From IMG/VR virus record IMGVR_UViG_3300036832_000539, positions 1 through 48,652 of that record: a stretch of DNA of 48,652 nt; one strand, written 5' to 3'. This document shows positions 1 to 48,652 of this stretch, one piece after another. The DNA is from a virus. Within the stretch, counting starts at the first letter, position 1, and the number at the start of each line of letters is the position of its first letter. The notes under the pieces are model-generated. The model had not been told where the DNA came from. It saw only the letters and a list, made by a program, of their open reading frames with translations, and made no database searches. A program made the position numbers and the translations under genes.

Positions 1-107
1 GGCGACGACAGCCAGGGCGACGACGACCAGGGCGACGACCAGGGCGATGGCCAAGGCGACGACAGCCAGGGCGACGACAGCCAGGGCGACGACGACCAGG
101 GCGACGA
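1..107. repeat. Terminal overlap: nt 1..107 are identical to nt 48546..48652 (circular or terminally redundant contig)
   Basis: Base-by-base comparison of the two ends shows an exact 107-nt match. The match lies in the same reading frame of the CobT-like gene. Confidence 0.9.
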
Positions 108-1101
108 CCAGGGCGATGGCCAAAGCGACGACCAGGGCGACGACCAGGGCAATGCCGGTGGCGATCCCAATGGCGCCGGAAGCGGGACCGATGGCCTAGA
201 CGATCGCGATTGGTTGTCGGGCTCCCCATCGGTGGACGATATCGCCGCTGACAAGTCAGCGGCGAACGATCCCCGCGCCACGCGCCGTTCCTTGCTGAAC
301 AGCTTTCGCGGCGCCGAGGTTAGCCCCGTTCGCAATAGCTACGGCAATAGCCCCACTACCACGGCGGAGATGCGGGACCGCGTGAAACGGCCGGCCGTGC
401 TGACCGACAGCATCGCGCGCCTCGTACTATCCGAGGCGCGCAACACGCGCGATCGTTACCTGTCGACAGGACGCTTTGACCGTCGCGCCATCGGACGCGC
501 CTCTTGGGGAGCGACCAACGTGTTCAGCCATCGCGAGTACGCGGAAGGCGTCGAAACGGCGGTATTCCTGCTAATCGACGGCAGCCAAAGCATGATGACG
601 CTGGGCCGCATGCGTGACGCACAATCGCTCGCCTATCACCTTGGCCACGCAATCGACGATGCCGGCGCGCAATGCGCCATCGGCGGTTTCTATTCCTGCG
701 ATCGCCTAGACCCTAACGGGTTTAGCATCGCCATGCGCATGGCCAAGCAATGGCGCGATCCTGTCGACGCGGTAAAACTGTCGCTGCTAGGCGCCACCGG
801 GACGACGCCCCTATCCCCCGCCATCATGGCAGCAAGCGACATGCTGGCCAGCGTGCGCGACGTCGGGCGCCGCATCCTGCTACCGCTAACCGATGGGTGT
901 TGCGACCTAGGAAGCGACGCGGTACGCGACGCGTGCGAATACGCTGGCAACCTCGACGTCGAGGTTGGCGGCATTGGTATCGGTGGCAACACGGACGTTG
1001 CCAACATCTTTCCGCTAGGCGTCGACCTTGGTCCCGGTGGCGACGTCGCGGAAGCTGGCCTGCGCCTGTTGGTCAACTTGCTGGAAAGGGAGCGCCGCTA
1101 G
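1..1101 (+). CDS. cobT: C-terminal part of a CobT-like protein: end of the acidic D/Q/G repeat linker plus a von Willebrand factor A (VWA) domain. It continues from 47673..48652 across the circular junction.
   Basis: Frame 1 is open from base 1 to the TAG at 1099-1101 and is in phase with the ORF that leaves the window at 48652. It has the MIDAS motif DGSQS (LLIDGSQSM, nt 577-591), followed by GTTPL and LTDG segments typical of VWA/CobT_C domains. The ORF track starts only at the internal TTG at 214. Confidence 0.8.
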   Translation, partial: GDDSQGDDDQGDDQGDGQGDDSQGDDSQGDDDQGDDQGDGQSDDQGDDQGNAGGDPNGAGSGTDGLDDRDWLSGSPSVDDIAADKSAANDPRATRRSLLNSFRGAEVSPVRNSYGNSPTTTAEMRDRVKRPAVLTDSIARLVLSEARNTRDRYLSTGRFDRRAIGRASWGATNVFSHREYAEGVETAVFLLIDGSQSMMTLGRMRDAQSLAYHLGHAIDDAGAQCAIGGFYSCDRLDPNGFSIAMRMAKQWRDPVDAVKLSLLGATGTTPLSPAIMAASDMLASVRDVGRRILLPLTDGCCDLGSDAVRDACEYAGNLDVEVGGIGIGGNTDVANIFPLGVDLGPGGDVAEAGLRLLVNLLERERR

Positions 1102-1236
1102 ATGCGCATCTTCACGCTGATTGTGGTGGCCATCGCCTTAGCGGCATGGCTGACCGAGCCTTGGCGTAAAGGCCACCCCTACACCAAGCCGGCGCCGGAA
1201 GCTGCACCGGAACCTCGCAAACCGATCCGCGAATAG
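1102..1236 (+). CDS. Small single-pass membrane protein, 44 aa
   Basis: The ATG at 1102 abuts the upstream stop (TAGATG). The N-terminus MRIFTLIVVAIALAAWL is hydrophobic and is followed by a basic/Pro-rich tail. The ORF is below the length cutoff of the ORF track. Confidence 0.5.
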   Translation: MRIFTLIVVAIALAAWLTEPWRKGHPYTKPAPEAAPEPRKPIRE

Positions 1237-1249
1237 GAGGAAAACCACT

Positions 1250-1447
1250 GTGGCCGAAAAGGATTTTGTTTCGCGAGCAAAACGAGAAATGGTCCCTGAT
1301 ATCGGGCAACTCGACCACACAGCCAAACTCGCGCTAGATCGCGCAGTACGTAGGGGCGAGATAAGAAAGTGGCGCGGCTGTTGGGATACAGGCGAGCTAT
1401 GGGGACTAGGGCGCCCGAGAACGTGTTACGGCCCTGTAGATCCCTAA
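1250..1447 (+). CDS. Hypothetical protein, 65 aa
   Basis: GTG start lies 9 nt after AGGAGG (1235-1240). The ORF is followed directly by an intrinsic terminator. Confidence 0.55.
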   Translation: MAEKDFVSRAKREMVPDIGQLDHTAKLALDRAVRRGEIRKWRGCWDTGELWGLGRPRTCYGPVDP

Positions 1448-1464: not shown

Positions 1465-1498
1465 AATCCCCGCGCCTAGCCAGCGCGGGGATTTTTTG
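1465..1498 (+). terminator. Rho-independent terminator ending the cobS/cobT-like operon
   Basis: Stem AATCCCCGCGC/GCGCGGGGATT (1465-1475 / 1483-1493) with a 7-nt loop, followed by a T6 run. Confidence 0.8.
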
Positions 1499-1604
1499 TG
1501 CCATCGCCGCTAAGGCGCCTAGGAACGCGCTACAACGCGTGAAGCCTGTCCCGGCTATGGGTGTAGCCATGCCATCCCTTGGCGCGTCCCTGCGGCCGTT
1601 AGCG

Positions 1605-7054: not shown

Positions 7055-7266
7055 GCCAATAGATCCTGTATGTTGATGGTTATCGGTCTGCCCTTCACAA
7101 AGGGCAGTTCGCCGGCCTTTCGGAGCCGTTGAATTTTCTTTGTCGAGCAACGCAACAGCGTGGCGGCTTCCTCCTGTGTCAAGAACGCGACAGGTATAGA
7201 CCGTATCGCCGTATTGGTCTGCGCAGCAATTAGCTCTAGCAATTCAGTATTATTCGGATGCGTCAT
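6871..7266 (-). CDS. xis: Excisionase-like / MerR-type HTH protein. The recognisable domain ends near 7060; the tail overlaps int in another frame.
   Basis: Sequence LTQEEAATLLRCSTKKIQRLRKAGELPFVKGRPITINIQDL is typical of small phage excisionase/HTH_17 proteins, and the gene sits immediately upstream of int. Confidence 0.55.
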   Translation of the reverse strand: MTHPNNTELLELIAAQTNTAIRSIPVAFLTQEEAATLLRCSTKKIQRLRKAGELPFVKGRPITINIQDLLACIRRRTLSKTTEGSGKSSGSIATPVAARMAARLAQVRLRGLRQSATTSNGAKRKATRSKR

Positions 7267-7879
7267 CGGTTTCTGCCGCGGTTGATGCTTTCATCTCTTC
7301 AACGATTATGCCGAGTTCCATAGCTTTCTTAAAAGGTAATACGATGTTTATTTGGACTTGCATCAGATTAGGATTGTCGACCAGCAACGCGAATTGAACC
7401 GCAGAGTGCTGCCGGTTGCGTGTCAGGGGACGGTTCATCGCTTCTGCCCCCATCAGATCCTCGGGAGTGCAATCGAGAACCGTGGCAATCTTCTTGAGAT
7501 TATCCGGTTCCGGTAGCCCCGCGCCGGCCAGATAGGCCGAAATTCGATCCCTGTTCCTTGCGACCGAGTGTCCTCTACTGTCGGTCGTCGATCCCCAGAT
7601 CTCTCGGGCGAGCTGGCTCTGGGACAAGCCCTTCGCCGTCATGTAGCGTTCGAGTTGGACGGGAAAATCCGTCTGTTTGTTTTTGGCGGTTAGTGCCATC
7701 ATCGTCATGTTGGTTTTGGGGCCGCCTGGGTTGTAAGCAACCCAGGCGTCCGGGTTCATCTGAACTGGCATTTTTGGTTGCGCTCCCAGAGGATTAACTT
7801 TGTCTTTTTGTGTCCTGTCTTTTTTAGCGCTAACAGCTTTCGGGCGTCTTGTCGAGGGGGAAGTAGGAGTATTTTTCAT
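7250..7879 (-). CDS. XRE/CI-type HTH repressor, 209 aa
   Basis: Cro/C1-type HTH segments GLSQSQLAREIWG and ISAYLAGAGLPEPDNLKKIATVLDCTPEDL. It is divergent from the early plus-strand operon. Confidence 0.75.
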   Translation of the reverse strand: MKNTPTSPSTRRPKAVSAKKDRTQKDKVNPLGAQPKMPVQMNPDAWVAYNPGGPKTNMTMMALTAKNKQTDFPVQLERYMTAKGLSQSQLAREIWGSTTDSRGHSVARNRDRISAYLAGAGLPEPDNLKKIATVLDCTPEDLMGAEAMNRPLTRNRQHSAVQFALLVDNPNLMQVQINIVLPFKKAMELGIIVEEMKASTAAETDDASE

Positions 7880-11754: not shown

Positions 11755-12296
11755 GCTATCCGCATCTCTTCAAGGCGCGTGCCGTAAACGAGCAAAGCGA
11801 GCCGCGGTTTAGCTGCAACCTCATCTTTGATAAGACCGCGCAGAACACACCGGAGTTTCAGCAACTCCGTAAACTCGCGATGGCCGCGGCGGTCACCAAG
11901 TTTGGCCAAGCCAAGCTGGATGACCCCAAGTTTATCGCGCGGCTGCGCCGGCCGTTCCGGCCCTGTGCCGATCGTCCCGGCGTCATGGGCTACGACGTCC
12001 CGGACGGCGTTTTTATTAACCCCTGGTCGCAGTTGCCGCCCAAGGTTGTCGGTCCCGACGCCCAGGAGATCACGGTGCCCTCCGACGTCTTCCCCGGGCA
12101 AAAGGCACGCGTTCAGGTGAACGCGTTCGCCTACGACAACGCCGGCAACATCGGCGTGAGTTTTGGGCTGCAAGCGGTCCAGATCACCCGCCGCAACATG
12201 CCGCGGCTGGATGGCCGCACCATCCTCCCCTTTGACCGCTCGACGGAGGAAGACGATGACGTCTTTGGTGGAACCGGCGACGACATGCCGTTCTAA
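11718..12296 (+). CDS. DUF2815-type single-stranded-DNA-binding-like protein
   Basis: N-terminal ILSYPHLFKARAV and an acidic SSB-like C-terminal tip DDDVFGGTGDDMPF. Gene order with the DUF2800 nuclease and PolA supports the call. Confidence 0.65.
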   Translation: MVDIALTPTGILSYPHLFKARAVNEQSEPRFSCNLIFDKTAQNTPEFQQLRKLAMAAAVTKFGQAKLDDPKFIARLRRPFRPCADRPGVMGYDVPDGVFINPWSQLPPKVVGPDAQEITVPSDVFPGQKARVQVNAFAYDNAGNIGVSFGLQAVQITRRNMPRLDGRTILPFDRSTEEDDDVFGGTGDDMPF

Positions 12297-17176: not shown

Positions 17177-17463
17177 TCAGCCGCTCTCGCCTCGATGCCG
17201 CAGTGGCCGCTTTCAAGACTGTTTCGGTTGCCGTGCGGGACGACGTCCTAGAGACAGCGCTTCTCGCCGCGCTCAGCGCCGCCGACACGACGGTCGAGAC
17301 GCTGCCGATGCCGGTGGCGCCTTATCGTTATAACAGCCTGGGCGAACCGCTACTTGAAGAGCTTAGCGCCAAACCGGAGGATTGCGGGAGCAGCCCGCTT
17401 GACGGCGCGGGCAGCCGGGGGGATGAAATCATCGACGGCGCCCATGAGGCTACTACTGGGTAA
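17173..17463 (+). CDS. Hypothetical protein, 96 aa; its 3' end overlaps the convergent giant gene
   Basis: ATGA overlap with the upstream ORF. GC3 bias is present. The last 114 nt overlap the 3' end of the minus-strand gene 17350..24483. Confidence 0.4.
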   Translation: MISRSRLDAAVAAFKTVSVAVRDDVLETALLAALSAADTTVETLPMPVAPYRYNSLGEPLLEELSAKPEDCGSSPLDGAGSRGDEIIDGAHEATTG

Positions 17464-20400
17464 CGCTGACCCCTCCGCTGTTCGCTGCTTGTCATCGGGC
17501 GGCATGAACTCTTTCAGCCGGTCGTCGTCGGGCGGCATGTACTCTTTCATGCGCTCCTTCTCGGCCTCGTCGGGCGTCATGTTGGTCTTCTCGCCCTTGG
17601 GGCCGGCCATCATCGTCGCAACGGTGTCAGCCGCCGACTGCGACAGGAAGGTCTGGCCCGCCCCGGACCACATCCACGACTTGATGGGACCGGCCGGCGC
17701 CAGCGCCATGCCCAGCGCGGCGACCGGCATGCCGAAAAGCTGGTACATGCCGCGCCAGGCCCGATAGCGCGCGGTGTTGGTGTTAGGGCTGCCGCTGGTG
17801 AGCGGGGCCAGGATGTCGGTGATCGCCTGGACGTATTGGTTCATCTGCGCGCCCAGGAACAGGCTGCTGATCTCGTGTTCGTACTTGATCGCGTTGATCG
17901 CGTTGACCAGGGGATCGGCCACACCGCCAACGCCGGTGCGCTGAAAGGCGAGGCCAAAAATCTTTTCCATATAGACCCCGTCCTTGCGCCATTGCGCCGC
18001 GCGCTTGTGGTCGAAAATCTCCTGGCGCACGATCGCCATCGGGACTTGCCCGATCATCATCATGCCGATTGCGGTGGCCGCAAAAGTCGCCCATTTAGCG
18101 GCGCCGACAGCCATGCCCGCGCCCTTGCCCAAGCGGCCTTGCTCGTAGCCGATGGTCTTCCCCAGGCGATCAAACGCCGGGTTGAGGACCGCGCGCTGAA
18201 ACATGAAGTTGTAGCTCTGCAACCCGTAGAGGAACCGGCCCCACGGTGTATTGGCCTTGAACGCCTTCTCGGCCGCGGTGTTTTCCAGTACCACCTTTTC
18301 GACAAAGCGGGTCGTGGCCTCGCCCCAACGCTGCCCCATCGGTGTCTGCAGGATCTCGTTGATGGTCGGCAGCCGGCCGTTGAGGCTCTGATACCATTTG
18401 GAAAATTCATCATGCTCGGCGTTGGGGATACCCATCTCGCGCATCTCGGCGTGCGGGTCGAAGAGCGCGCCGCGCCGGCCCGCGAGAATATCACGGGCGT
18501 ACATCCCCAGCGCGACATGGGCCGCCCAGCGCGCGCCCACCTTGTTGCCGTTTGTTGTCTGGGTGAGGCCGGTTCGCCGGTAGAAGTTCGCCATCATGTG
18601 GCCCGGCGACCACGAAAACGCCTCGGTGCGCCCTGTCAGCATCGCCTCCTGCAGCCGGGTCGACGTCGTCCCCAGGACGCGGGAGATGTCGGCCAGGTGC
18701 TGCACTCGCTCGGACCCTTTGATCAGCCCGATCTGCCGCATGATGTCCTGCATCGCGATCGAGAAGCCGCCGGCTGCCGCCCGCGCGCTGCCGCTCTGGG
18801 CAAACGCCACCATCGGCTCGCTGATCGACGACCACGCGGCGTGCGACATCAGTGCCATCGTTCCCAGCGCCCGCATCCAGACGGCGGCCTTGTGACCGAC
18901 ATCGATCTCGTTTGAGCGCAGCATGCCGAGAGCGCTCTGGATCGTGCCGCGGATCTGCTCGCGATCCTCTTGCAGGACGCCGGCCTCGTGAAGGTCGCTC
19001 ATCGCCTTTTCGAGGACTTCGCCCTGGTGGCCAAAGAGGTCGCCAAAAGCGAGCTTGCGGCCCATCTGGTGAAAATAGTAGGGCAGCAGCTCGCTGGGAC
19101 GCGTGACGATGTAGCCGGCGTTAGCGAGGATATCCCGGGCCTCGGCCGACAGGACGCGCTGCCGCAGCGGGTCGGAAGTTGGCATCGTCCCCGACTTGTT
19201 GCCGGGACGCGCCCACGGGACGTCGGTCCTTGAGTGAACCCAATCGCTGCTGCGCTGCTGCGCCCAGGCTTCGCGGATCGGGTCGGTGACCCGGCTGAGA
19301 AGGTCTTGCTGTTGCCGGTCGAGCGCGGCGAGCTTGCCGGGGTCCGTCTCCGTGCGCATCGCCTCTTGGACGCGCGCCAGTTCCTCCATGTCGGCTTGAA
19401 CGCCTTTATCAATGCCGGCGCGCGGAAGGGCGCCATAGGCTTCGTGGATAAAGGTATTGTCCTTGATTTGCTTCGAGTTGAAGTCGGCGCGCATCGCATC
19501 GGCGATGACGTCCTTGGCCTTAACCCCGTCGCGGATGATCGCCTGGTCGTCGTAGACGATCGGGATATAGTTCTCATCGCGCGGCATCCCGACATTGATC
19601 CCGGCGCGCTCGATCCGATACCACATATCTTTAAGCACGGCGTCGATCCCGGCGGCCGCCCGCTGGATATTGGCCGGGACGACAGGTGTGTTGCCCTGCG
19701 CGTCCCGGCCGCGCAGCGCGTCGAAGAGCATCTTCTCGTTGTCGAGGTTCAGCCGGTTGGTCGGCATCCCGTTGTCGTTGAGGATCTTGTCGATCTTGTT
19801 GACTTCCGGGTTGGTGATCCGGTTGGCCGCGCGCTCGAAGGGGGTCACCTGTAGCCGGCCCTCGCCGTAGCGATAGCCGAGTTTGTCGAGAAGGTTGCTG
19901 ATGATCGCGGCGGCACGGTGGTTGCCCAGCGCCTCGTAGCGCTCGCGGTAGACGTCGAGCTGCCCCATATTTGTATAAATATGGGGGGTGATGATGTCCT
20001 TGACGTTGATCGCCCCGTGCTGGACGCCCTTCCAGCTAAAGGTGGGGACGCCCTGCGCGCCGGCGCGCTCGGCCATTTCCTGCAGTGTTCGTTGCCGCCA
20101 GTTGCGGGTCACGTTGACCGCCCGGCGCAACCCGTTGGTCAACTGGGGATTGGACTGCGGGTTGTTGGTGTACTGCCAGTAGACCGGGTCGAGGATGTCG
20201 TAATCGCCGGGACGTGCGGCCTTGTTGCGCGACCCCAGGATATTGTCCCGCTGCAGGATCGCGTGCATGTCGTTCATCGCGTTAAAGATCGCGTCCCGGT
20301 CGGCGGCTTGCGGGTAGTGGTCGGCAAACCGCTGGGTGGCGCCGGCCAGATACTCTTGGTCCCCCTTGGTGATGAACTCGTTGCTGCCGCCCTGTTGCTC

Positions 20401-23400
20401 GGCAAGGTGCGCGACATACGCCTCGCCCGCCCGGGCCAGCATTTCCTCGGGTGATGCCCAGTAGTTCCGGGGCGACAATTGCTGGGACCCGGTCACCAGA
20501 CCTGTCGGCTGGATCGGGGTCTTTGGCTTGCCACCGGCGATGATCCGCTGGGCCTCGGCTGCAGCGGCGCGACGCGTGTTGGCGTTGGGGTGCGTTTGCG
20601 CCGTCATGTTGAGATCGGCGATGCGCGCGGCTTCCGCGGCGCGATCGTGGAAGATCGCCCGCATGACATTGGCGACCGCCTCTTCCAGCGTCCCGGGATG
20701 CACGTTAGTCAAGGCCCCGGTGTGCGCGATTTGCGACGTCAGCGCTTTACGGACAGCCGGATTGCGGTTTACGAACCGCAGCAGATAGTGATCGAGCGCG
20801 TGCGTCCACTCATGGGCAAAGCTGTTCGATCGATCCGGCATGTGGATGCTGATCTCTCCCTTGGCGTTGATCGACATCATGCCGAGATAGGCTTTCTTGG
20901 GGTTGGGCTGCCACGGCTCGAACCGCAGATTGATCTCACCGTGAAGCGACATGCCCTTGAGGCTCGCGCCCAGCAGATGCGCCATCATCTGCATGTTGCG
21001 GTAGCCGTCGAGCATGCTGTCGATCGCCTTCTGCGGCTGCATCTTGGGATCGACGTGGACCTTGAAGCCAAAAGTCTTCTCGATGTGGTTGCCCAGGATC
21101 TGCAGCCGCCGGGCGGGGGTAAATAGGGCCGCGACATCAGGGTCGTAGCCCGCGTCCCGGTACGCCTGACGGAACAGCGAGGGCCGGTCGGTGATGTCGG
21201 GCGCCTCCCTTCCCGGTATGCGCCTTGTTGTCGGGACGCGGTAGAGGCCGCCCAACCGTGGCTGGCCAGGACGTAGCTGCGCCTGATATGCGTCTGCCGC
21301 GCGCTCGCCCGCCGGTGTCATGCCGCGCTCGGCCTGGTAGGCCACGTCCCGCTGTTGCTGCAGCCCGCCCATGTCGCGGATGATCTGCGCCCGCTCGGTC
21401 GGATCGCTGGTCGCCTCGTAGCGGTCCCGCAGATCGGTGATCTTGTTGGTCAGGCTCTCGACTGTTTCGGCGCCCGGCCGCGGCGGGATCGCTAGGCCCT
21501 CATCGCCGGTACGCGTGTCCTGGGGCGCCAACGGCAACTCGCCCTGCTCGCGGGCCTCGGTCATGGTGATCGGCTCACCCGACGTTGCCTGCGCCGCTTG
21601 CGGCGCCTCCTTGCCCGGCTCCGCGTAGAACGGCCGGCTCTCGCTCGTCGTGGTGTCGACCGGCACCGGCTCGGTCGCGCCCGTGGCCGTTGCCGCCGCA
21701 TCACGCGTTTCGAGCGTCAAATCCACCGGCCGCGTTTCGTGGCTGATCGGCTGGCCCTGCGCGATGGCGACGACTTGTTGGGTCTGGGGGTCGCGCACGG
21801 CGACGATCGGCGCCTCGCCAGGACGCGACGTCAGATAGGTGTTCGCCCCGACGTCCCCGTACTTCGAGAGGACCGCGTAGCGGTCGGCGTCCAGCTCGAC
21901 CGTGTGGCCATCGGCGGTGTGCCCGTGAACGACCTCGGTGCCATCGGGGGTCGTTGTCGTGTCGGTCCAGGCGATCCCGTGCCGGGCCTCGGTGTTGGCC
22001 GACGTGACAATCGCGTCGATCGGCTTGACGTCCTTCAGCTCGACATTCTCGCGCGCGGTGGCCGTGCCAAAATGCTGGTCGACCTCGGGGTTGGTGCCCT
22101 CGCGCACGAGGACGCCGGCGTGGCCCACCCATGTCGTGCCGGTGCTGTCGGTCGCCCGCACCAGGCGCCCCTCGGGGGGCGGGGTGGTGATCCCGGTCGC
22201 GACCTTGCTCTCGTCTGCCGGCGGAGCCGGGGGGCGTGTCGCGGACCAGAGGTCTTGCAGATGCTTGCTGATTGCCTCCTGGGTCGACTTCCAGGCTGCC
22301 GCGAGGGCCTTGGGTCCCGGCTGGCCCATGCTTTTGGCGACGCCGACAGCACCCGGGATCGTGCCGGCGACAAAGGCCGGGATCATTTCCTCGGGCTGGC
22401 CCAGCCCCTCGGTGACCGACTTCTCGGGCTGCGTCGTCGCCTTGTCGACGATGTTGTTGACGAGATGCTGCAACTGGCCGACGCCGGTCATCAGCGTGCC
22501 GTCCTCGGCCATGTGGACGATCGCCGCGACAGCCGCGCGCTTCTCGATCGGGCCTAGCGCCGACAGCCAGCGCGTCGCCGGGACGGCAAACAGCCCGGAC
22601 GCGGCAATCGCCTTGGCACCGGCGTTGACCGCTGCGTCCTCCGGGGACGCGCCGGCCTTGATCTGCTCCTGATAGCTCTGCGCGTAGGTCTGGGACGCAG
22701 CAATTCCCATTGCTGCCGGCACCCCGCCGGCCAGCAGCGAGCCGACATAGACCGGCAGCGAGCCGATCGCCTTGCCGATATTGGTCGACATGGCGTTCTC
22801 GTAGCCCGCTGGTGGGGTGATCTTCTGACCCTGCGTGTTGATCCACTCGCCGGGAACAGCCACCGTCTCGCCCACCGCAGAGCCACCCTTGGCCAACAAC
22901 CGGCCACCCTGGTAGATCACCGATTGCTCGGGCGGCGCCATCTGCGAAAGGTCTTGCTCGTACTGCGCCCGGAACGCCTGGCGTTGCTCGGGCGTCATGT
23001 CTTGGTAACCGTAGAGATCGGTCGGACCCTGCCCTGGCTGGCCCACGGTCGCGGCGGGGAACCGCTCGCCCTTGTCGATCCGGTCCATGATCGCAAGCTG
23101 GTCGCGCGCCTGTTGCTGCGCGTTGTAGGGCGCGGCTTCGAGCGCGTGGCCGGCGAGCGCGGTCCCGCCGGTGATCAAGTGCCCTGGCCCCGCCGCGACC
23201 TGGCCGACAGTCGTGACCGCGCCTTGGCCGGCGCCCGCTATCGCTGCAGTCAGCGGCTCGGTGGGCATCTGCGGCACGCCCTGCGGCGACAGGATCGCCT
23301 CGGGCGGGACATCCGGGATGATGATCGGCTCTTGCGGCTCGGCCGGTGGCGTCTGTGGCGCCGGCACCGCTGCCTGTTGCGTCGCTGGTGCTGACAATTG

Positions 23401-24483
23401 CGCCGGTGTGGCTTGCAGATCCGGCGGGGCCAGGGGTTTGTTAAGCTGCGCCGCGGCGTCGGGAACCTCGGGAAGTTCGAGACGAGATTGCTGTTGCTGC
23501 TGCTGCCACGGGAACGCCCCGGTGGCCGGCGCGGCCTGGGACGTGGGTTGTTCAGGCTGAGCTGCTGCCGGCTGAGTTTCCCACGGGAACGCCCCGGTGG
23601 CCGGCGCGTCCTGGGACGTGGCGGGTTGCTCGGGCTGCTCGGGCTGCTGCTGCTCGGGCTGGGCTTCCCACGGGAACGCCCCGGTCGCCCCCTGCTGCGG
23701 CGCCGGTGGTGTCGTTGTCGTGTTGCCCTGCTGGGCGAATTGTGCACGCAGGCGATTGGCTTCAGCGTAAATGCCTAGGGGGTCGCCAAAACCGGGTGAC
23801 GCCCGCGCGCCACCCGTGTCGGCGTGCATAATGTCGCGCTGCCCGCTGCCCTTCTGCGTCTCGAAATAATTGCCCCAGGCGAACTTGTGCTGCGCATAGC
23901 CCTGCGGGTTGAGGTAGGCGTAGTTGACCAGCGCCTGCACGATAACGTGGTGAAAGATGCCGGTCTTGTCCGGGCCTCTGTTGGGGACCTCGGACCCGTC
24001 GTCCCGGTAGATGTGCCAATCCTCGGCCCGACCAAAAGCGTGCTGCGAGCTTGGGTTGTCCAGCCGCACACCCGACGACATGCGCGCGGTCCAGCCCGGT
24101 GGCAGGGTCGCCGCAAACGCTGCGTGCATCGCCGTGTGGAGATCGGGGTCGACACCCGGAGGTCCCGGGCCACGCTGCAGCGGAGTGTGTGCTGGCGCCG
24201 GCGGTGGCGGCGCAACCGTAGGCGCCTCTTGTGTCGGGGCTTGCGGCGGGACGAGCGGGGTCGGCGGCCCGGTCGCCTCGGGTTGGTCGGTAGGTGCCGC
24301 CGGCGCCGGGGGAGGGGGAGGGTTTGGCGCCGGCGGCTGGGACGTCGCAGTGCTTGTGTCCTGGGACGCCCACGGGAACGCGCCGGTCGCAACCGGCTGC
24401 GCGTTTTGCTCAGGCTGATCGTCGGGTGGCTTGGTGTCCCACGGAAAGGGACCCGTATACGAAAGACTACTGTCGAGCGGCAT
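17350..24483 (-). CDS. Giant polyvalent internal virion (ejected) protein, 2377 aa, with an N-terminal peptidase M15-like peptidoglycan hydrolase domain and a central HExxH zincin-like domain
   Basis: Exact LAS/M15 signature SxHxxGxAxD (SSQHAFGRAEDW) plus a downstream MHAD. HEWTH at nt 20800-20814 (SFAHEWTHALDHY). It is the last gene of the internal-virion-protein block, the position occupied by gp16 in T7-like layouts. Confidence 0.7.
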   Translation of the reverse strand: MPLDSSLSYTGPFPWDTKPPDDQPEQNAQPVATGAFPWASQDTSTATSQPPAPNPPPPPAPAAPTDQPEATGPPTPLVPPQAPTQEAPTVAPPPPAPAHTPLQRGPGPPGVDPDLHTAMHAAFAATLPPGWTARMSSGVRLDNPSSQHAFGRAEDWHIYRDDGSEVPNRGPDKTGIFHHVIVQALVNYAYLNPQGYAQHKFAWGNYFETQKGSGQRDIMHADTGGARASPGFGDPLGIYAEANRLRAQFAQQGNTTTTPPAPQQGATGAFPWEAQPEQQQPEQPEQPATSQDAPATGAFPWETQPAAAQPEQPTSQAAPATGAFPWQQQQQQSRLELPEVPDAAAQLNKPLAPPDLQATPAQLSAPATQQAAVPAPQTPPAEPQEPIIIPDVPPEAILSPQGVPQMPTEPLTAAIAGAGQGAVTTVGQVAAGPGHLITGGTALAGHALEAAPYNAQQQARDQLAIMDRIDKGERFPAATVGQPGQGPTDLYGYQDMTPEQRQAFRAQYEQDLSQMAPPEQSVIYQGGRLLAKGGSAVGETVAVPGEWINTQGQKITPPAGYENAMSTNIGKAIGSLPVYVGSLLAGGVPAAMGIAASQTYAQSYQEQIKAGASPEDAAVNAGAKAIAASGLFAVPATRWLSALGPIEKRAAVAAIVHMAEDGTLMTGVGQLQHLVNNIVDKATTQPEKSVTEGLGQPEEMIPAFVAGTIPGAVGVAKSMGQPGPKALAAAWKSTQEAISKHLQDLWSATRPPAPPADESKVATGITTPPPEGRLVRATDSTGTTWVGHAGVLVREGTNPEVDQHFGTATARENVELKDVKPIDAIVTSANTEARHGIAWTDTTTTPDGTEVVHGHTADGHTVELDADRYAVLSKYGDVGANTYLTSRPGEAPIVAVRDPQTQQVVAIAQGQPISHETRPVDLTLETRDAAATATGATEPVPVDTTTSESRPFYAEPGKEAPQAAQATSGEPITMTEAREQGELPLAPQDTRTGDEGLAIPPRPGAETVESLTNKITDLRDRYEATSDPTERAQIIRDMGGLQQQRDVAYQAERGMTPAGERAADAYQAQLRPGQPRLGGLYRVPTTRRIPGREAPDITDRPSLFRQAYRDAGYDPDVAALFTPARRLQILGNHIEKTFGFKVHVDPKMQPQKAIDSMLDGYRNMQMMAHLLGASLKGMSLHGEINLRFEPWQPNPKKAYLGMMSINAKGEISIHMPDRSNSFAHEWTHALDHYLLRFVNRNPAVRKALTSQIAHTGALTNVHPGTLEEAVANVMRAIFHDRAAEAARIADLNMTAQTHPNANTRRAAAAEAQRIIAGGKPKTPIQPTGLVTGSQQLSPRNYWASPEEMLARAGEAYVAHLAEQQGGSNEFITKGDQEYLAGATQRFADHYPQAADRDAIFNAMNDMHAILQRDNILGSRNKAARPGDYDILDPVYWQYTNNPQSNPQLTNGLRRAVNVTRNWRQRTLQEMAERAGAQGVPTFSWKGVQHGAINVKDIITPHIYTNMGQLDVYRERYEALGNHRAAAIISNLLDKLGYRYGEGRLQVTPFERAANRITNPEVNKIDKILNDNGMPTNRLNLDNEKMLFDALRGRDAQGNTPVVPANIQRAAAGIDAVLKDMWYRIERAGINVGMPRDENYIPIVYDDQAIIRDGVKAKDVIADAMRADFNSKQIKDNTFIHEAYGALPRAGIDKGVQADMEELARVQEAMRTETDPGKLAALDRQQQDLLSRVTDPIREAWAQQRSSDWVHSRTDVPWARPGNKSGTMPTSDPLRQRVLSAEARDILANAGYIVTRPSELLPYYFHQMGRKLAFGDLFGHQGEVLEKAMSDLHEAGVLQEDREQIRGTIQSALGMLRSNEIDVGHKAAVWMRALGTMALMSHAAWSSISEPMVAFAQSGSARAAAGGFSIAMQDIMRQIGLIKGSERVQHLADISRVLGTTSTRLQEAMLTGRTEAFSWSPGHMMANFYRRTGLTQTTNGNKVGARWAAHVALGMYARDILAGRRGALFDPHAEMREMGIPNAEHDEFSKWYQSLNGRLPTINEILQTPMGQRWGEATTRFVEKVVLENTAAEKAFKANTPWGRFLYGLQSYNFMFQRAVLNPAFDRLGKTIGYEQGRLGKGAGMAVGAAKWATFAATAIGMMMIGQVPMAIVRQEIFDHKRAAQWRKDGVYMEKIFGLAFQRTGVGGVADPLVNAINAIKYEHEISSLFLGAQMNQYVQAITDILAPLTSGSPNTNTARYRAWRGMYQLFGMPVAALGMALAPAGPIKSWMWSGAGQTFLSQSAADTVATMMAGPKGEKTNMTPDEAEKERMKEYMPPDDDRLKEFMPPDDKQRTAEGSALPSSSLMGAVDDFIPPAARAVKRAAPAILRFGAKLFK

Positions 24484-46179: not shown

Positions 46180-46216
46180 ATGGACAAAACCAACGGCAAC
46201 TGATAAAGATATATTC

Positions 46217-46240
46217 GGTTTCGTATGTATTTACGAAGCC
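46217..46240. promoter_or_regulatory. Imperfect 24-bp palindrome in the AT-rich divergent intergenic region (candidate operator)
   Basis: GGTTTCGTA-TGTATT-TACGAAGCC: 8 of 9 arm positions pair. It lies between the late-arm start (46179) and the cobS-like start (46273). Confidence 0.35.
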
Positions 46241-46272
46241 TAATACAAACCAACTAAATAAAGGATCTACTA

Positions 46273-47670
46273 ATGACTAGGTTGACTAACGAACAGCGCA
46301 CGGCCCTACGCCGCGCAATCAACGCGCATCCCGACAAGGAAAAAATTGCACCGAACGTGCACGTTTCTTCGCTGAATAAGGACGCGTTACTTGAACTTGC
46401 GAGCAAGCTGAACCTGAACATCATTTGGGATGGCAGCGTTGCTCCAAAATTGGAAAGCGAGCCAATGACGCCACCGGACAACGTCCCGGCCGTTACGGGC
46501 GATGCGATCGATCAGGCAATCGAAGATGAGGTAGGCCGCATTCGTGGCCTACTGGCCACCGGCGGTTTCGCGCAACTTGACAGCGTCCTAAAAGACCTTG
46601 TGCGGGACGCGCGCAAGCCGGCCGAAATCATCTATCAGCCGGTGGCGCAGCAAGTCGGCGCCGCATCCCCGCTACCCATCGCCAAGCCGGTGAAGCAAGC
46701 GACATGGGGTGTCACCTTTGGCCTACGGGGAGCGCTCGCGTCCCGCAACGTTTCCATTTGGGATGCGCAGGACGCGCCGGCGATCGATCCCGACTATGTA
46801 TGGCCAGCGTCGACAGGCGCCGTATTGTCACAAATGGCGCGCAAGCGTCACGTTTGGCTATATGGCCCTAAGGGGACAGGCAAAACGACGTTTGCCGAAC
46901 AGATTGCCGCGCGCCTTCACCGGCCGTTATCGGTGATTAGTTGCGACGGTGGCATAGAAGCCATCGAGCTGATTGGCCAGAACCTCCCCAAAGATGGCGG
47001 TTTCGTTTGGCAGAATGGCCAGTTGCTGCAAGCGATCCAACGTCCCGGCTGCGTCATCCTAATAGATGAGCCTAGCGTTGCGCGGCCTAGCGCGCTGTTC
47101 GTCTTTCAACACTTGCTGCAGTTTCGCGAGATTTACATTCGCGAAACGGGACAGCGCGTGCAATGCGCGCCGGGAGTGTTGTTTATCGCGGCGGACAACA
47201 CAAACGGGACAGGTGGCGGGAACAAGCACGGCTATACCGACACCAATCGCTTGAACGCGGCGACCTTAGACCGGTTTAGCATCATGGTCCCGATTGACTA
47301 TCTGTCCCCGACCAAGGAACAGCGCGTCCTAGTATCCCGCACGGGATGCACGCCAGCGTTGGCGGATATCCTTGTGAAGGCGGCCGGGTTAACCCGGGCG
47401 ATTGCCGCTAGCGGCAACATCGTCGCGCCCATCGGCTTGCGCCAAATGTTTGGTTGGGCAGAAACGCTAACAGACGGGATCGATCCTAAGGACGCGCTAG
47501 AGTTCGCGATCATTAGCAAGGCGCCCGAACAAGACCGGGAGACGCTACGGCAACAGTGCCTACTCGCGGTCGACCGTGCGGCGATTGCTGCAGCAATCAG
47601 CAACACGCCGGCGCCGGCGCCCGTAGTCCCCGGGACGTTCGCTCCCGTCATCGATGACGAAGGGAATTGA
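46273..47670 (+). CDS. cobS: CobS/MoxR-like AAA+ ATPase, 465 aa
   Basis: Walker A LYGPKGTGKTT, Walker B VILIDEPS, and AADNTNG...TLDRF (sensor/Arg finger region). The ATG lies 7 nt after AAGGA. The N-terminal LNKDALLELASKLNL segment resembles a SAP/Rho-N-like helix pair. Confidence 0.8.
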   Translation: MTRLTNEQRTALRRAINAHPDKEKIAPNVHVSSLNKDALLELASKLNLNIIWDGSVAPKLESEPMTPPDNVPAVTGDAIDQAIEDEVGRIRGLLATGGFAQLDSVLKDLVRDARKPAEIIYQPVAQQVGAASPLPIAKPVKQATWGVTFGLRGALASRNVSIWDAQDAPAIDPDYVWPASTGAVLSQMARKRHVWLYGPKGTGKTTFAEQIAARLHRPLSVISCDGGIEAIELIGQNLPKDGGFVWQNGQLLQAIQRPGCVILIDEPSVARPSALFVFQHLLQFREIYIRETGQRVQCAPGVLFIAADNTNGTGGGNKHGYTDTNRLNAATLDRFSIMVPIDYLSPTKEQRVLVSRTGCTPALADILVKAAGLTRAIAASGNIVAPIGLRQMFGWAETLTDGIDPKDALEFAIISKAPEQDRETLRQQCLLAVDRAAIAAAISNTPAPAPVVPGTFAPVIDDEGN

Positions 47671-47672
47671 GC

Positions 47673-48652
47673 ATGTTTGACAGCAACCATATCCCCTACT
47701 CGCGTGTCGTCTCGGCGGCACGCGATACGGCCGAAAAGATTTGCGCGCACGGCTCGCGCCGCGTTTCCGTCAACGTCACGACGCTAGGCGGCACTACCGC
47801 GAGCGTGAAGTGGGACTATGACACGGCAACGCTAAACCTCCCGACCATCCCCGCGTGTCAAATCATGTCGCGCGCGGAAGCAAACCAGATTGTCGGCCTA
47901 ATCGCGCACGAGTGTTGCCACATTATGCACAGTGATTGGCAAGCGTGGGTCAACGCTGTCGCCGATGGCAAGGCGCTAAAGGAATTAACCAACGGAATTG
48001 AAGACGTCCGCATTGAACGGACAGAAATCAAACGTAGGAACCTCCCCGGGCTGCAGGACGCGTTGTCCGACACAATGGTTATGATGCACGGCAAATCACT
48101 TGCTGCAGCCATGCGCATGGGCCAAACGATCGGCACGCGTCCCGAACATGCCGCATATGTCATCGCCATCATGGGGCGCCTAGCCAATGGCTACGCGATC
48201 CCTAACGCGGCCGATGTTGGCCTAGGGATCGCGCCCGAATATCGGCCGGCGATTGACTACGCGTTGGCCAAGCTCCCCGGCTTGGCCAATACCTACGGCG
48301 CCGCGATGCTGGCTAGGGAAGTGCTGGCCATGCTGGCTGCAGCCAAACCAGACGATAGCCAGGGCGACGACCAGGGCGATGGCCACCAGGGCGACGACCA
48401 GGGCGATGGCCAAGGCGACGACAGCCAGGGCGACGACCAGGGCGACCAGGGCGACGACCAGGGCGATGGCCACCAGGGCGACGACAGCCAGGGCGACGAC
48501 GACCAGGGCGACGACCAGGGCGACGACCAGGGCGATGGCCACCAGGGCGACGACAGCCAGGGCGACGACGACCAGGGCGACGACCAGGGCGATGGCCAAG
48601 GCGACGACAGCCAGGGCGACGACAGCCAGGGCGACGACGACCAGGGCGACGA
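47673..48652 (+). CDS. cobT: N-terminal part of the CobT-like protein (HExxH-containing domain plus acidic repeat); runs off the window end and continues at 1..1101
   Basis: The ATG at 47673 lies 2 nt after the cobS-like stop. The frame is open to the window end. IAHECCHIMHSD contains HExxH at nt 47907-47921. Absent from the ORF track because no stop falls inside the window. Confidence 0.75.
   Translation, partial: MFDSNHIPYSRVVSAARDTAEKICAHGSRRVSVNVTTLGGTTASVKWDYDTATLNLPTIPACQIMSRAEANQIVGLIAHECCHIMHSDWQAWVNAVADGKALKELTNGIEDVRIERTEIKRRNLPGLQDALSDTMVMMHGKSLAAAMRMGQTIGTRPEHAAYVIAIMGRLANGYAIPNAADVGLGIAPEYRPAIDYALAKLPGLANTYGAAMLAREVLAMLAAAKPDDSQGDDQGDGHQGDDQGDGQGDDSQGDDQGDQGDDQGDGHQGDDSQGDDDQGDDQGDDQGDGHQGDDSQGDDDQGDDQGDGQGDDSQGDDSQGDDDQGD
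48352..48652 (+). repeat. Imperfect in-frame tandem repeat encoding (D-D-[S/D]-Q-G / D-G-[H]-Q-G)n, continuing at 1..~150
   Basis: Repeated GGCGACGAC(AGC/GAC)CAGGGC and GGCGATGGCCA(C/A) units. The minus-strand ORF 48222..48599 (ALVV repeats) is its antisense artefact. Confidence 0.9.

What the first reader, a model, noticed from the sequence alone, without database searches (positions are those of the whole stretch)
46273..48652. CobS/MoxR-like AAA+ ATPase paired with an HExxH, acidic-repeat, VWA (CobT-like) protein spanning the genome junction
Gene 46273..47670 is an AAA+ ATPase with GPKGTGKT and ILIDE motifs. The next gene (47673..48652, joined to 1..1101, about 657 aa after removing the 107-nt overlap) has three parts:
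- an N-terminal domain carrying an HExxH motif (IAHECCHIMH, nt 47907-47921);
- a roughly 100-residue D/Q/G/S acidic tandem repeat;
- a complete MIDAS VWA domain (DGSQS...T...D).

No other cobalamin-pathway gene is present, so chelatase activity is unlikely. The pair looks like a MoxR-VWA remodelling or conflict-type module with a possible metallopeptidase head. It forms its own operon with a 44-aa membrane protein and a 65-aa protein, ends at a strong terminator, and is transcribed divergently from the late arm. The function of such pairs in phages is unresolved.
Basis: partly seen in the sequence, partly recalled or inferred. Interest (0 to 1): 0.65.

Follow-up and report, generated by a model that had tools for sequence, protein, structure and literature searches.

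The report
Phage CobS/CobT-like AAA+–VWA pair
This temperate phage carries the widespread viral "CobS/CobT-like" gene pair: an ATP-driven motor plus an adaptor that, unlike the true vitamin-B12 enzyme subunit, keeps an intact zinc-protease motif. The pair is real and conserved, but it has already been described and its job in phages is still untested.

Summary
Gene A (46273..47670) is a MoxR/CobS-class AAA+ ATPase. Gene B reads through the contig ends as one 657-aa ORF once the 107-nt end overlap is removed. B has an N-domain with HECCH, a 117-residue D/G/Q/S linker with net charge about -46, and a finger-bearing VWA domain with a full MIDAS.

The "genome junction" is an assembly break inside a 69-bp tandem repeat, so the repeat copy number is uncertain. 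It stays in frame either way.

B belongs to a large, almost purely viral or mobile family. In 93 full-length representatives, H79, E80, H83, N107, D111 and E115 are invariant; E110 and R113 are nearly so. In 74 of 77 viral loci an AAA+ gene sits directly upstream. Four canonical CobT sequences have the same architecture but lack HExxH.

The most likely mechanism is a NorQD/CobST-type finger-in-pore remodelling machine whose N-domain is a live zincin. Cobalt chelation is less likely. Protease activity is inferred, not shown.

The pair is already in the literature as the viral cobST cluster (PMC8651126) and as a MoxR-vWA-metallopeptidase pair (PMC7824862). This is therefore a new member of a known kind with unresolved function.

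The parts
46180..46272 (.). AT-rich divergent intergenic region upstream of gene A; presumed promoter region, with an AAAGGA ribosome-binding site 8 nt before the ATG
   Evidence: Read directly from the sequence. The consensus sigma-70 scan found no site here, so the promoter is inferred only.
46273..47670 (+). Gene A: 465-aa MoxR/CobS-class AAA+ ATPase. It has a phage-specific N-terminal extension (aa 1-~165), a CobS-like N-terminal motif (aa ~169-190), the AAA_5 core and a CbbQ_C lid (aa 349-417).
   Evidence: Pfam AAA_5 E = 7e-19 and CbbQ_C; phrog_249 E = 4.5e-51. PDB sequence hits: midasin 2e-30, CobS 9ujv 4e-25, NorQ 2e-21, CbbQ. 31% identity to S. meliloti CobS over 267 aa. N-terminal extension.
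46864..46887 (+). Walker A motif GPKGTGKT (aa 198-205)
47056..47070 (+). Walker B motif ILIDE (aa 262-266)
47673..48356 (+). Gene B N-domain (aa 1-228): zincin-like, CobT_N-like fold (helix, three-stranded sheet, helical bundle)
   Evidence: AF2 pLDDT 96.2. BFVD hits to viral CobT/VWFA proteins at E down to 5e-10. Weak PDB hits are enriched in minigluzincins and M48 peptidases. The secondary structure matches the published CobT_N description.
47907..47921 (+). HECCH (H79, E80, H83), the putative zinc-binding and catalytic motif
   Evidence: Invariant in 93 of 93 full-length representatives; two carry a one-residue insertion giving HExxGH.
47991..48017 (+). NGIEDVRIE (aa 107-115): second signature on helix 100-121. 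E110 and E115 are the candidate third metal ligands.
   Evidence: N107, D111 and E115 are invariant; E110 is present in 92 of 93 and R113 in 91 of 93. Canonical CobT partly retains it as EQARVE.
48357..48652 (+). First part of the acidic D/G/Q/S tandem-repeat linker (B aa 229 onward). The last 107 nt duplicate window 1-107.
1..162 (+). Rest of the acidic repeat linker (to B aa 345). Nt 1-107 are the assembly overlap.
202..1101 (+). Gene B C-terminal region (aa 359-657 plus stop): beta0-alpha0'-alpha0 wrap, finger, and VWA domain with MIDAS
   Evidence: AF2 pLDDT 85. Foldseek PDB best hit is the NorD VWA domain in the NorQD complex, 9qh6_G, E = 1.9e-13; next is the midasin MIDAS domain 8ql1.
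439..543 (+). Beta-hairpin 'finger/shaft' with a short tip helix (aa 438-472), carrying the G448-R449-x-D451 tip motif. Predicted to insert into the AAA+ pore.
   Evidence: Model secondary structure. G448 is invariant and R449/D451 are at least 90% conserved. Analogy to the CobT shaft and the NorD finger.
577..591 (+). MIDAS DGSQS (D484, S486, S488). The remaining ligands are T560 (nt 805-807) and D589 (nt 892-894).
1102..1236 (+). 44-aa ORF with an N-terminal transmembrane helix and a Pro-rich tail. Its start codon abuts B's stop codon.
   Evidence: A homologous 46-aa ORF sits in the same position in L005. Small transmembrane ORFs lie downstream of B in Mae-Yong1326-1, L006, L011 and L032.
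1250..1447 (+). 65-aa ORF (GTG start, AGGAGG upstream), function unknown
   Evidence: No family hit and no detectable conservation.
1465..1500 (+). Intrinsic terminator-like hairpin (11-bp stem, 8 GC pairs) followed by a T-run, ending the four-gene unit

Best explanation
A and B form a virus-type CobS/CobT-like machine of the MoxR-AAA+/VWA class.

**Shown here.**
- A has a complete AAA+ module with the CbbQ_C lid.
- B has the same four-part layout as cobaltochelatase CobT and as NorD: an N-domain, a long disordered acidic linker, a beta-hairpin finger and a VWA domain with a full MIDAS.
- The two genes are translationally coupled, and homologues are almost always adjacent.

**Inferred by analogy to the CobSTN and NorQD cryo-EM structures.**
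- A forms a hexamer.
- B's finger (aa 438-472) inserts into A's pore, and B's N-domain docks on A's lid subdomain.
- ATP-driven rotation of the finger and VWA domain relative to the N-domain twists and stretches the acidic linker.
- This strains a client protein held between the MIDAS site and the N-domain.

**Difference from the chelatase, and the step I commit to.**
- B's N-domain is a catalytically intact zincin (HExxH plus a downstream NxxEDxRIE helix).
- The machine therefore most likely cleaves, or at least grips through a metal, a peptide of its client. That would make it an ATP-driven, MIDAS-targeted remodelling protease acting on a phage or host protein during infection.
- It is probably not a cobalt-insertion subunit.
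- The client is unknown.
For: **Class and fold.**
- Pfam and PDB hits for A and 31% identity to CobS.
- The C-terminal model matches the NorD VWA domain with finger at E = 1.9e-13.
- The MIDAS residues are invariant.
- The N-domain model has pLDDT 96, and its secondary structure matches the published CobT_N description.

**Mechanistic templates.** The CobT shaft inserts into the CobS pore and CobT_N binds the CobS lid. NorQD shows a finger-in-pore arrangement with linker twisting.

**Live zincin.**
- H79, E80 and H83 are invariant in 93 of 93 representatives. E80 is the general base in zincins and is not a metal ligand.
- N107, D111 and E115 are invariant; E110 and R113 are nearly so.
- The same signature occurs in pMT1 (HEVAH...NALEDVFIE; hhalign E = 2e-15), in the cyanophage S-RIM8 'peptidase' and in Mae-Yong1326-1.

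**Not a standard chelatase.**
- Four canonical CobT sequences, including the crystallised one, have GLGDSMALR-type sequence in place of HExxH.
- NCBIfam CobS scores 90 bits against a 558 cut-off, and CobT 27 bits against 759.
- About 1000 homologues sit on ~110-kb plasmids of Klebsiella, E. coli, Acinetobacter, Yersinia and Salmonella.
- From established knowledge, not tested here: these are SSU5/pMT1-type phage-plasmids, and their enterobacterial hosts lack CobN because E. coli has no de novo corrin pathway and Salmonella/Klebsiella use the anaerobic CbiK route.

**Obligate pairing.** An AAA+ gene lies directly upstream in 74 of 77 viral loci, with a median gap of 4 nt.
Against: - No enzymatic or genetic data exist for any member; literature searches found none.
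- Foldseek found no significant solved zincin for the N-domain (best E = 0.4).
- I could not inspect metal-site geometry because the model coordinates are not exposed.
- The E..R.E part of the second motif is also kept in canonical CobT, which lacks HExxH. It may therefore be structural or an interface rather than a metal ligand.
- The domain-by-domain identity with true CobT, and CobS being the closest characterised ATPase, keep a chelatase-type or metal-insertion role possible.
- HExxH could be conserved for metal binding without proteolysis.
Confidence: 0.5

Rival explanations
1. Genuine auxiliary cobaltochelatase subunits. The viral CobS/CobT pair with host CobN to boost cobalamin synthesis, for example to supply B12-dependent enzymes during replication. 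This is the proposal of Liu et al. 2021.
For: - B has the same N-domain/linker/shaft/VWA-MIDAS layout as CobT.
- A is 31% identical to CobS and hits PDB CobS at 4e-25.
- Some family N-domains hit Pfam CobT at 7e-16.
- The proposal is published in PMC8651126.
- TerL relatives infect Rhizobium. From established knowledge, that group has CobN.
Against: - HExxH and the catalytic Glu are invariant in the viral family but absent from four canonical CobT sequences.
- Scores are far below the NCBIfam equivalog cut-offs.
- A has a ~165-aa N-terminal extension absent from CobS.
- Family members are abundant on plasmids of Enterobacteriaceae and Acinetobacter. From established knowledge, the enterobacterial hosts lack CobN.
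- No cob gene was seen among the annotated window ORFs.
- A rhizobial host would already have its own CobST.
Confidence: 0.17
2. A non-proteolytic metal-insertion or maturation chaperone for another client (phage or host metalloprotein), in the manner of NorQD, CoxDE or MoxR. In this reading the HExxH site holds or hands over a metal ion rather than hydrolysing a peptide.
For: - From established knowledge, characterised MoxR-VWA pairs are mostly metal-cofactor insertases: NorQD (Fe), CobST (Co), ChlID (Mg).
- The best structural match of the C-domain is NorD.
- Conserved His and Glu residues are compatible with plain metal binding.
Against: - E80 is invariant. In zincins this residue is the catalytic base, not a ligand, so pure metal storage would not need it.
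- No obvious metalloenzyme client is encoded nearby.
Confidence: 0.2
3. A prophage-borne moron acting in conflict: superinfection exclusion, defence or anti-defence. It would be expressed from its own promoter and terminator in the lysogen.
For: - It is a self-contained unit with its own terminator. It lies between the late arm and the minus-strand primase gene, a few kb from the integrase and repressor genes.
- PHROG lists phrog_249 under 'moron, AMG and host takeover'.
- ATPase-plus-protease pairs such as IetAS exist among defence systems (my own knowledge).
Against: - PADLOC gives only P-loop-level hits for A and nothing for B or for four homologues.
- From established knowledge, the pair is core in strictly lytic T4-like cyanophages. 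It sits beside replication genes in S-RIM8 (clamp, clamp loader) and in pMT1 (dnaE).
- Its position is syntenic in ~50-kb relatives.
Confidence: 0.08
4. A virion-assembly chaperone-protease that folds and processes structural proteins. This is the proposal of Iyer et al. 2021 for jumbo phages, by analogy to the ATV MoxR-vWA pair needed for tail development.
For: - Published proposal, PMC7824862.
- The gene lies next to the start of the late arm. The phage has a 2377-aa probable tape-measure protein and tail fibres that might need chaperoning.
Against: - It is transcribed divergently from the late genes.
- In other phages it sits with replication genes.
- No virion-proteomic or genetic support was found.
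- This is a sub-case of the best explanation (the client would be a structural protein).
Confidence: 0.15

Closest known systems
Aerobic cobaltochelatase CobS/CobT (CobSTN; PDB 9uka, 21vu, 21vt; bioRxiv 10.64898/2026.07.21.739949)
   Same: - AAA_5 ATPase with a CbbQ_C-type lid.
- CobT layout: M48C-like N-domain, a ~90-130-aa disordered acidic linker, a shaft that enters the ATPase pore, and a VWA domain with a DxSxS...T...D MIDAS.
- Adjacent genes in cobS-cobT order.
   Different: - The viral N-domain keeps HExxH with the catalytic Glu, whereas canonical CobT has GLGDSMALR-type sequence there.
- Scores are far below the equivalog cut-offs.
- The viral ATPase has a ~165-aa (up to ~400-aa) N-terminal extension.
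- There is no CobN or cob pathway context.
NorQ/NorD (PMC13036017; PDB 9qh6)
   Same: - Best structural match of B's C-domain, with the VWA finger in the AAA+ pore.
- The N-terminal domain binds the ATPase lid.
- A long unresolved linker is proposed to be twisted and stretched.
   Different: - NorD serves Fe insertion into cNOR and has no HExxH head (my own knowledge).
- The fingertip motif is GRxLL/I in NorD against GR[LF]DRR here.
Viral cobST cluster / T4-like cyanophage 'peptidase' plus CobS (PMC8651126; S-RIM8 YP_007518220 and YP_007518223)
   Same: The same HExxH...NxLEDxRIE signature, acidic linker and VWA domain, next to or near a CobS-like ATPase. Widely distributed in tailed viruses of bacteria and archaea.
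   Different: - Sequence identity is low (phrog_459 hit E = 0.0076 only).
- In S-RIM8 the two genes are separated by two small ORFs and sit in a replication cluster of a lytic myovirus.
MoxR-vWA pair with an N-terminal metallopeptidase in group 2.2 jumbo phages (Iyer et al. 2021, PMC7824862)
   Same: The same architectural description and the same chaperone-plus-peptidase interpretation.
   Different: - It was described for jumbo phages and assigned to virion assembly, whereas this is a ~48.5-kb temperate siphovirus-like genome.
- I did not compare sequences with ASV44728/ASV44729.
SSU5/pMT1-type phage-plasmid 'porphyrin biosynthesis protein' plus AAA ATPase (Y. pestis WP_002211766/WP_002211767)
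   Same: HEVAH + NALEDVFIE, a ~200-aa acidic linker and a VWA-MIDAS domain. hhalign against the family profile gives E = 2e-15.
   Different: - The gene order is reversed (VWA gene first).
- The pair is adjacent to dnaE.
- R113 is replaced by F.
M48/minigluzincin zincins (selecase 4qhf, jannalysin 4jix, abylysin 4jiu, ZMPSTE24, BepA)
   Same: - HExxH on a long helix followed by helices carrying conserved Glu residues.
- These are the recurring, though weak, Foldseek hits.
- The authors of the CobT_N crystal structure call it M48C-like.
   Different: - Foldseek E is 0.4 or worse, with only ~75-90 aligned residues.
- An extra short helix lies between the HExxH helix and the Glu helix.
- No activity has been shown.

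Membership tests
Canonical cobaltochelatase CobS (TIGR01650) / CobT (TIGR01651) | Score at or above the NCBIfam equivalog cut-offs | tested here: not met
   CobS scores 90.2 bits against a 558.55 cut-off. CobT scores 27.2 bits against 759.05, and that hit covers aa 63-310, which includes the acidic linker. The N-domain alone gives no hit.
Canonical cobaltochelatase CobS/CobT | CobT architecture: N-domain, disordered acidic linker, shaft, VWA with MIDAS | tested here: met
   compared with the published description
Canonical cobaltochelatase CobS/CobT | Pathway context: CobN or other cob genes in the genome, and complementation of CobN | tested here: not met
   No cob-related hit among 28 window ORFs scanned with Pfam or PHROGs, other than A and B themselves. 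Host CobN could not be assessed because the host is unknown.
Canonical cobaltochelatase CobS/CobT | N-domain sequence of canonical type (RG-x-x-D-S/A-x-A-L-R, no HExxH) | tested here: not met
   The window has GLIAHECCH. Four canonical CobT sequences, including PDB 9uka, lack HExxH.
MoxR-class (clade 7, AAA_5) AAA+ ATPase | Walker A and B, AAA_5 domain and CbbQ_C lid above the Pfam cut-offs | tested here: met
   AAA_5 68.7 bits against 22; CbbQ_C 26.5 bits against 20.6; motifs located
MoxR-class AAA+ ATPase | Helix-2 insert and pre-sensor-1 hairpin that grip the partner's finger | tested here: inconclusive
   The BLASTP alignment to CobS covers the H2-insert region, but it is 4 residues shorter in A. 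No structure of A was predicted.
VWA/MIDAS adaptor of AAA+ (NorD/CobT/midasin type) | DxSxS...T...D MIDAS and a VWA fold with a beta-hairpin finger preceding beta1 | tested here: met
   Invariant D484, S486, S488, T560 and D589. Model and Foldseek hit to NorD, E = 1.9e-13 over 288 columns.
Viral CobT-like family (phrog_1576; HExxH...NxxEDxRIE signature) | Profile match, signature residues, and an adjacent AAA+ partner | tested here: met
   phrog_1576 E = 3e-13. 273 representatives at E <= 1e-3, with the signature present throughout. Partner adjacent in 74 of 77 loci.
Zincin (gluzincin, M48-like) metallopeptidase | HExxH with the catalytic Glu | tested here: met
   H79, E80 and H83 are invariant in 93 of 93
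Zincin (gluzincin, M48-like) metallopeptidase | Third metal ligand (Glu) on a following helix, correctly placed | tested here: inconclusive
   The candidates E110 and E115 lie on helix 100-121. Geometry could not be measured. These residues are also kept in the HExxH-less canonical CobT.
Zincin (gluzincin, M48-like) metallopeptidase | Significant fold match to a solved zincin | tested here: inconclusive
   Best Foldseek E = 0.4-0.6 (selecase, jannalysin, abylysin), probability 0.5-0.7 over 75-116 columns. The M48C resemblance of CobT_N is reported by others. The CobT_N crystal entry 21vu did not appear among the hits; the library holds entries released up to 2026-04-08.
Zincin metallopeptidase | Metal content and peptidase activity | not testable with these tools
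   Needs biochemistry
Known anti-phage defence systems (PADLOC 2.0) | Profile match of both components | tested here: not met
   A gives only ~40-aa P-loop matches to IetA (E = 4e-7). B and four homologues give none.

The most novel reading that the evidence does not exclude
The viral CobT-like proteins are the catalytically live form of the adaptor that cobaltochelatase later domesticated. Together with their AAA+ partner they would form a previously uncharacterised type of ATP-driven, MIDAS-targeted zinc protease. It would cleave a specific host or phage protein early in infection. Hundreds of 'cobS/cobT/porphyrin biosynthesis' auxiliary-metabolic-gene annotations in phages and phage-plasmids would then be wrong.
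Probability: 0.35. Interest if true: 0.6.

Novelty: new member of a known kind. Interest (0 to 1): 0.38.

Why it matters
- This gene pair is among the more widespread function-unknown modules in tailed viruses. It is reported as core in T4-like cyanophages (PMC8651126). Here it was found in haloarchaeal viruses, in about 1000 plasmids of clinical Enterobacteriaceae and Acinetobacter, and in many ~50-kb metagenomic phages.
- It is routinely counted as a vitamin-B12 auxiliary metabolic gene. The invariant HExxH, absent from four canonical CobT sequences, argues that this annotation is at best incomplete.
- The 2026 CobSTN and NorQD structures now give a concrete mechanical frame for experiments: finger in pore, N-domain on the lid, and a stretched linker.
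- This particular window adds one more member and no new experimental handle. Cultured relatives such as phage-plasmids in E. coli or Salmonella and Mae-Yong1326-1 are the better test beds.

Tried and rejected
1. PDB sequence searches with B and with a 34-sequence N-domain profile found no CobT or zincin. Canonical CobT is in the PDB but is too diverged for HMMER from this side.
2. Foldseek of the N-domain against the PDB gave no significant hit. The CobT_N crystal entry 21vu did not appear among the hits; the library holds entries released up to 2026-04-08.
3. Pfam and NCBIfam on the isolated N-domain gave nothing. The full-length 'CobT' hits cover the acidic linker and vanish when the N-domain is scanned alone.
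4. The first genome-contig scan, with close-relative patterns, found nothing. The 40-sequence alignment was too diverse to derive patterns.
5. PADLOC supports no defence-system membership.
6. tblastn of the 44-aa and 65-aa ORFs against 81 loci found no hits. Manual inspection then found a 46-aa homologue of the 44-aa ORF in L005.
7. Literature searches for any functional, knockout or anti-defence study of phage CobS/CobT found none.
8. Rfam and tRNA scans of the window were empty.
11. I considered that the N and C halves might be separate genes joined by a mis-assembly. I rejected this because 46 related loci carry both halves in one ORF and none is split.


Full report
**1. Observation**

The window ends overlap by 107 nt; a second, 38-nt overlap is 69 nt shorter. 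The overlap lies inside a tandem array of 69-bp period that occupies 48351-48652 and 1-144. With the overlap removed, 47673..48652 plus 108..1101 is one 657-aa ORF. Without removal the reading frame breaks. Because 69 is a multiple of 3, any error in copy number changes the protein by whole 23-aa units. So the "genome junction" is an assembly breakpoint in a repeat, not a biological end. Twelve of 77 related IMG/VR contigs end at the same place, just after the N-domain.

- Walker A GPKGTGKT at aa 198-205 and Walker B ILIDE at aa 262-266 in gene A.
- HECCH at nt 47907-47921 in gene B.
- An acidic repeat of 117 residues (D46, G33, Q26, S7, H3, no basic residue).
- MIDAS DGSQS...T560...D589.

Gene B starts 2 nt after A's stop codon. 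A 44-aa ORF starts directly after B's stop codon. A 65-aa ORF follows with an AGGAGG upstream. An 11-bp-stem hairpin with a T-run closes the unit at 1465-1500. Upstream lies a 93-nt AT-rich divergent intergenic region in a ~62% GC genome.

**2. What the proteins are**

*Gene A.* A matches Pfam AAA_5 (E = 7e-19) and the CbbQ/NorQ C-terminal lid, and PHROG 249 "porphyrin biosynthesis", which is the phage CobS family (E = 4.5e-51). Its PDB sequence relatives are midasin, CobS (9ujv), NorQ and CbbQ. It is 31% identical to S. meliloti CobS over the whole AAA+ module. It scores 90 bits against the NCBIfam CobS cut-off of 558. It also carries about 165 extra N-terminal residues, as do its phage homologues.

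*Gene B, family level.* B matches PHROG 1576 (function unknown, E = 3e-13) and only marginally CobT models. Those CobT hits span the acidic linker, and the isolated N-domain hits nothing.

*Gene B, N-domain.* The AF2 model has pLDDT 96. It shows a helix, a three-stranded sheet and then a helical bundle. This is the topology published for the crystal structure of CobT_N, which its authors call M48C-peptidase-like.
- Foldseek against viral models finds "CobT" and "VWFA" proteins of many phages and haloarchaeal viruses, with E down to 5e-10.
- Against the PDB nothing is significant. The weak top hits are zincins: selecase, jannalysin, abylysin, ZMPSTE24, BepA, MATCAP and SPRTN.

*Gene B, C-terminal region.* The model (pLDDT 85) is a VWA domain preceded by a wrap and a beta-hairpin finger with a tip helix. 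Its best PDB match is the NorD VWA domain in the NorQD complex (E = 1.9e-13), followed by the midasin MIDAS domain.

**3. The family**

A profile of the N-domain found 273 representative proteins at E <= 1e-3 among 1.84 billion.
- In the 93 full-length ones (about 530-840 aa), H79, E80, H83, P57, N107, D111 and E115 are invariant. E110 is present in 92 of 93 and R113 in 91 of 93. Two proteins carry a one-residue insertion giving HExxGH.
- Nearly all have a D/E-rich stretch (median 37.5% D+E in the most acidic 40-aa window), in most cases around residues 220-330. All have a DxSxS MIDAS near residue 430-480.
- The repeat units differ between close relatives, so the linker keeps its composition but not its sequence.
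- In 74 of 77 IMG/VR loci an AAA+ homologue lies directly upstream on the same strand. The three exceptions start at a contig edge. The median gap is 4 nt.
- N- and C-domains are in one ORF in all 46 loci where both are detectable.

The same signature is found elsewhere:
- Microcystis phage Mae-Yong1326-1, the nearest isolate, which is syntenic and has 54% TerL identity.
- The 'peptidase' of cyanophage S-RIM8, near its CobS gene.
- The 'porphyrin biosynthesis protein' of Y. pestis pMT1; hhalign against the family profile gives E = 2e-15.

About 1000 plasmid records of ~110 kb in Klebsiella, E. coli, Acinetobacter, Enterobacter, Yersinia and Salmonella carry such a gene. Only 23 hits with the exact motif occur among 185,579 species genomes. 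Eleven of them (nine assigned to Methylomonas) share a multi-copy AAA_5 / unknown 253-aa / DUF3150 / CobT-like arrangement. The family is therefore essentially viral or mobile.

**4. Relation to true CobT**

Four canonical CobT sequences (S. meliloti, the crystallised 9uka protein, Sphingomonas and Methylobacterium) have RG[LFN][GA]D[SA][MF]ALR where the viral family has G[YF]xxHExxH. They keep [FY]DAVE[QT]AR[VI]E where the viral family has NxLEDxRIE. Profile-profile comparison gives E = 1.6e-4 and aligns the LP and E..R.E landmarks. Five of 40 viral N-domains hit Pfam CobT at E down to 7e-16. The domains are therefore homologous. The chelatase adaptor has lost the zincin site and the viral proteins have kept it, including the Glu that is a catalytic base rather than a ligand.

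**5. Mechanism**

The CobSTN preprint shows three things. The CobT shaft sits in the CobS pore, gripped by helix-2 inserts. CobT_N sits on the CobS lid. CobN is clamped between CobT_N and the MIDAS face. The NorQD paper shows the same finger-in-pore geometry, and proposes that ATP-driven 60-degree steps rotate the VWA domain relative to the lid-bound N-domain and stretch the linker to remodel the client.

B has every one of these elements, including an invariant G448 and nearly invariant R449 and D451 at the fingertip. I therefore infer the same mechanics. Because the N-domain retains the full zincin signature, I add that the client is probably cleaved or metal-gripped there.

This is inference. 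No member has been studied experimentally, as far as the searchable literature shows.

**6. Rivals**

- *CobN hijack (PMC8651126).* This is weakened by the HExxH pattern, the sub-threshold scores, the ATPase extension, and abundance on plasmids of enterobacteria. That those hosts lack CobN is established knowledge, not tested here. It is not excluded, particularly for cyanophages.
- *Non-proteolytic metal-insertase.* This remains plausible.
- *Defence or moron role.* This has only positional support; PADLOC is negative.
- *Virion-assembly role (PMC7824862).* This is a special case of the preferred model.

**7. Context of the window**

The phage looks temperate. It has an integrase, a CI-like repressor, a T7-like replication set (primase-helicase, helicase, exonuclease, gp2.5-like SSB, family A polymerase, resolvase), TerL and tail fibres. 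The A-B unit lies between the divergent late-arm genes (U129 and U166, conserved in relatives) and the convergent primase gene. This order is shared by ~50-kb relatives. Related prophage hosts and the nearest TerL relatives point to Proteobacteria, possibly Alphaproteobacteria.

**8. Novelty and score**

The architecture and both interpretations are already published. What this analysis adds:
- A quantified conservation of the zincin signature.
- Its absence from four canonical CobT sequences.
- A mapping onto the 2026 structures.

The verdict is a new member of a known kind. The function is genuinely unresolved and the family is large, but this window offers no special leverage. Interest is 0.38.

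Noticed in passing
window 1898-2031: The octamer CAGTGCTA occurs as three direct copies (2006-2031) and two inverted copies (1898-1917). They flank an 86-nt spacer inside a ~540-nt non-coding stretch between the operon terminator and the 3' end of the primase gene. It looks like an iteron or operator array, perhaps an origin or a regulator-binding site.
   Followed up: partly
window 17350-24483 (-): A 2377-aa ORF with no PHROG hit. It is probably the tape-measure protein. The related phage Mae-Yong1326-1 has a ~340-nm tail, which would fit a protein of this length.
   Followed up: no
window 6050-7150 (-) and 7250-7879 (-): An integrase (phrog_1, E = 2.9e-28) and a CI-like repressor. The phage is probably temperate. 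The replication module is T7-like: gp2.5-like SSB, family A polymerase, exonuclease and helicase.
   Followed up: partly
window 46273-46770 (gene A aa 1-~165); loci L005-L081: The AAA+ partners of this family carry N-terminal extensions of about 150-400 aa that canonical CobS lacks. Walker A is at a median position of 277, against 198 in this window and about 60 in S. meliloti CobS. A short conserved helix-hairpin-like motif (L..L..L...LG.D) lies near the N-terminus. No family hit was found.
   Followed up: partly
loci L009, L012, L016, L022-L024, L027-L031, L034: Twelve related IMG/VR contigs, eight of them ~48-51 kb, end right after the N-domain of the CobT-like gene, inside the acidic repeat. 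The low-complexity linker is a recurrent assembly breakpoint. Database fragments P0005 and P0006 look like products of such breaks or frameshifts.
   Followed up: yes
L096 2676-7653 (Methylomonas methanica); also L097-L100 and L103-L106: A cellular or mobile four-gene variant: AAA_5+CbbQ_C ATPase, a 253-aa protein with no Pfam hit, DUF3150, and a CobT-like HExxH/acidic/VWA protein. It occurs in two copies in two of the Methylomonas genomes (M. methanica R-45363 and M. defluvii OY6). There are no PADLOC hits.
   Followed up: partly
window 1102-1236; L005 11878-12018; L001 4558-4647: A small single-pass membrane ORF directly downstream of the CobT-like gene recurs in L005 (clear homologue: GEHPYTLPAP against GHPYTKPAP), in Mae-Yong1326-1 (29 aa) and in a few other relatives. 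It may be a membrane anchor or partner.
   Followed up: partly
L001 (Mae-Yong1326-1, OP028995): This phage is published as infecting Microcystis aeruginosa. Its proteins are Ala/Arg/Gly-rich, suggesting a high-GC genome, and its best BLAST relatives are alphaproteobacterial (Devosia, Roseicella, per the paper's own table). The recorded host may deserve a second look.
   Followed up: no
L005 ~12050-12290: The nearest relative carries another perfect tandem repeat just downstream of the operon (translated as GLDSQ x9 in one frame). Repeat-rich non-coding DNA after the operon may be a feature of this phage group.
   Followed up: no
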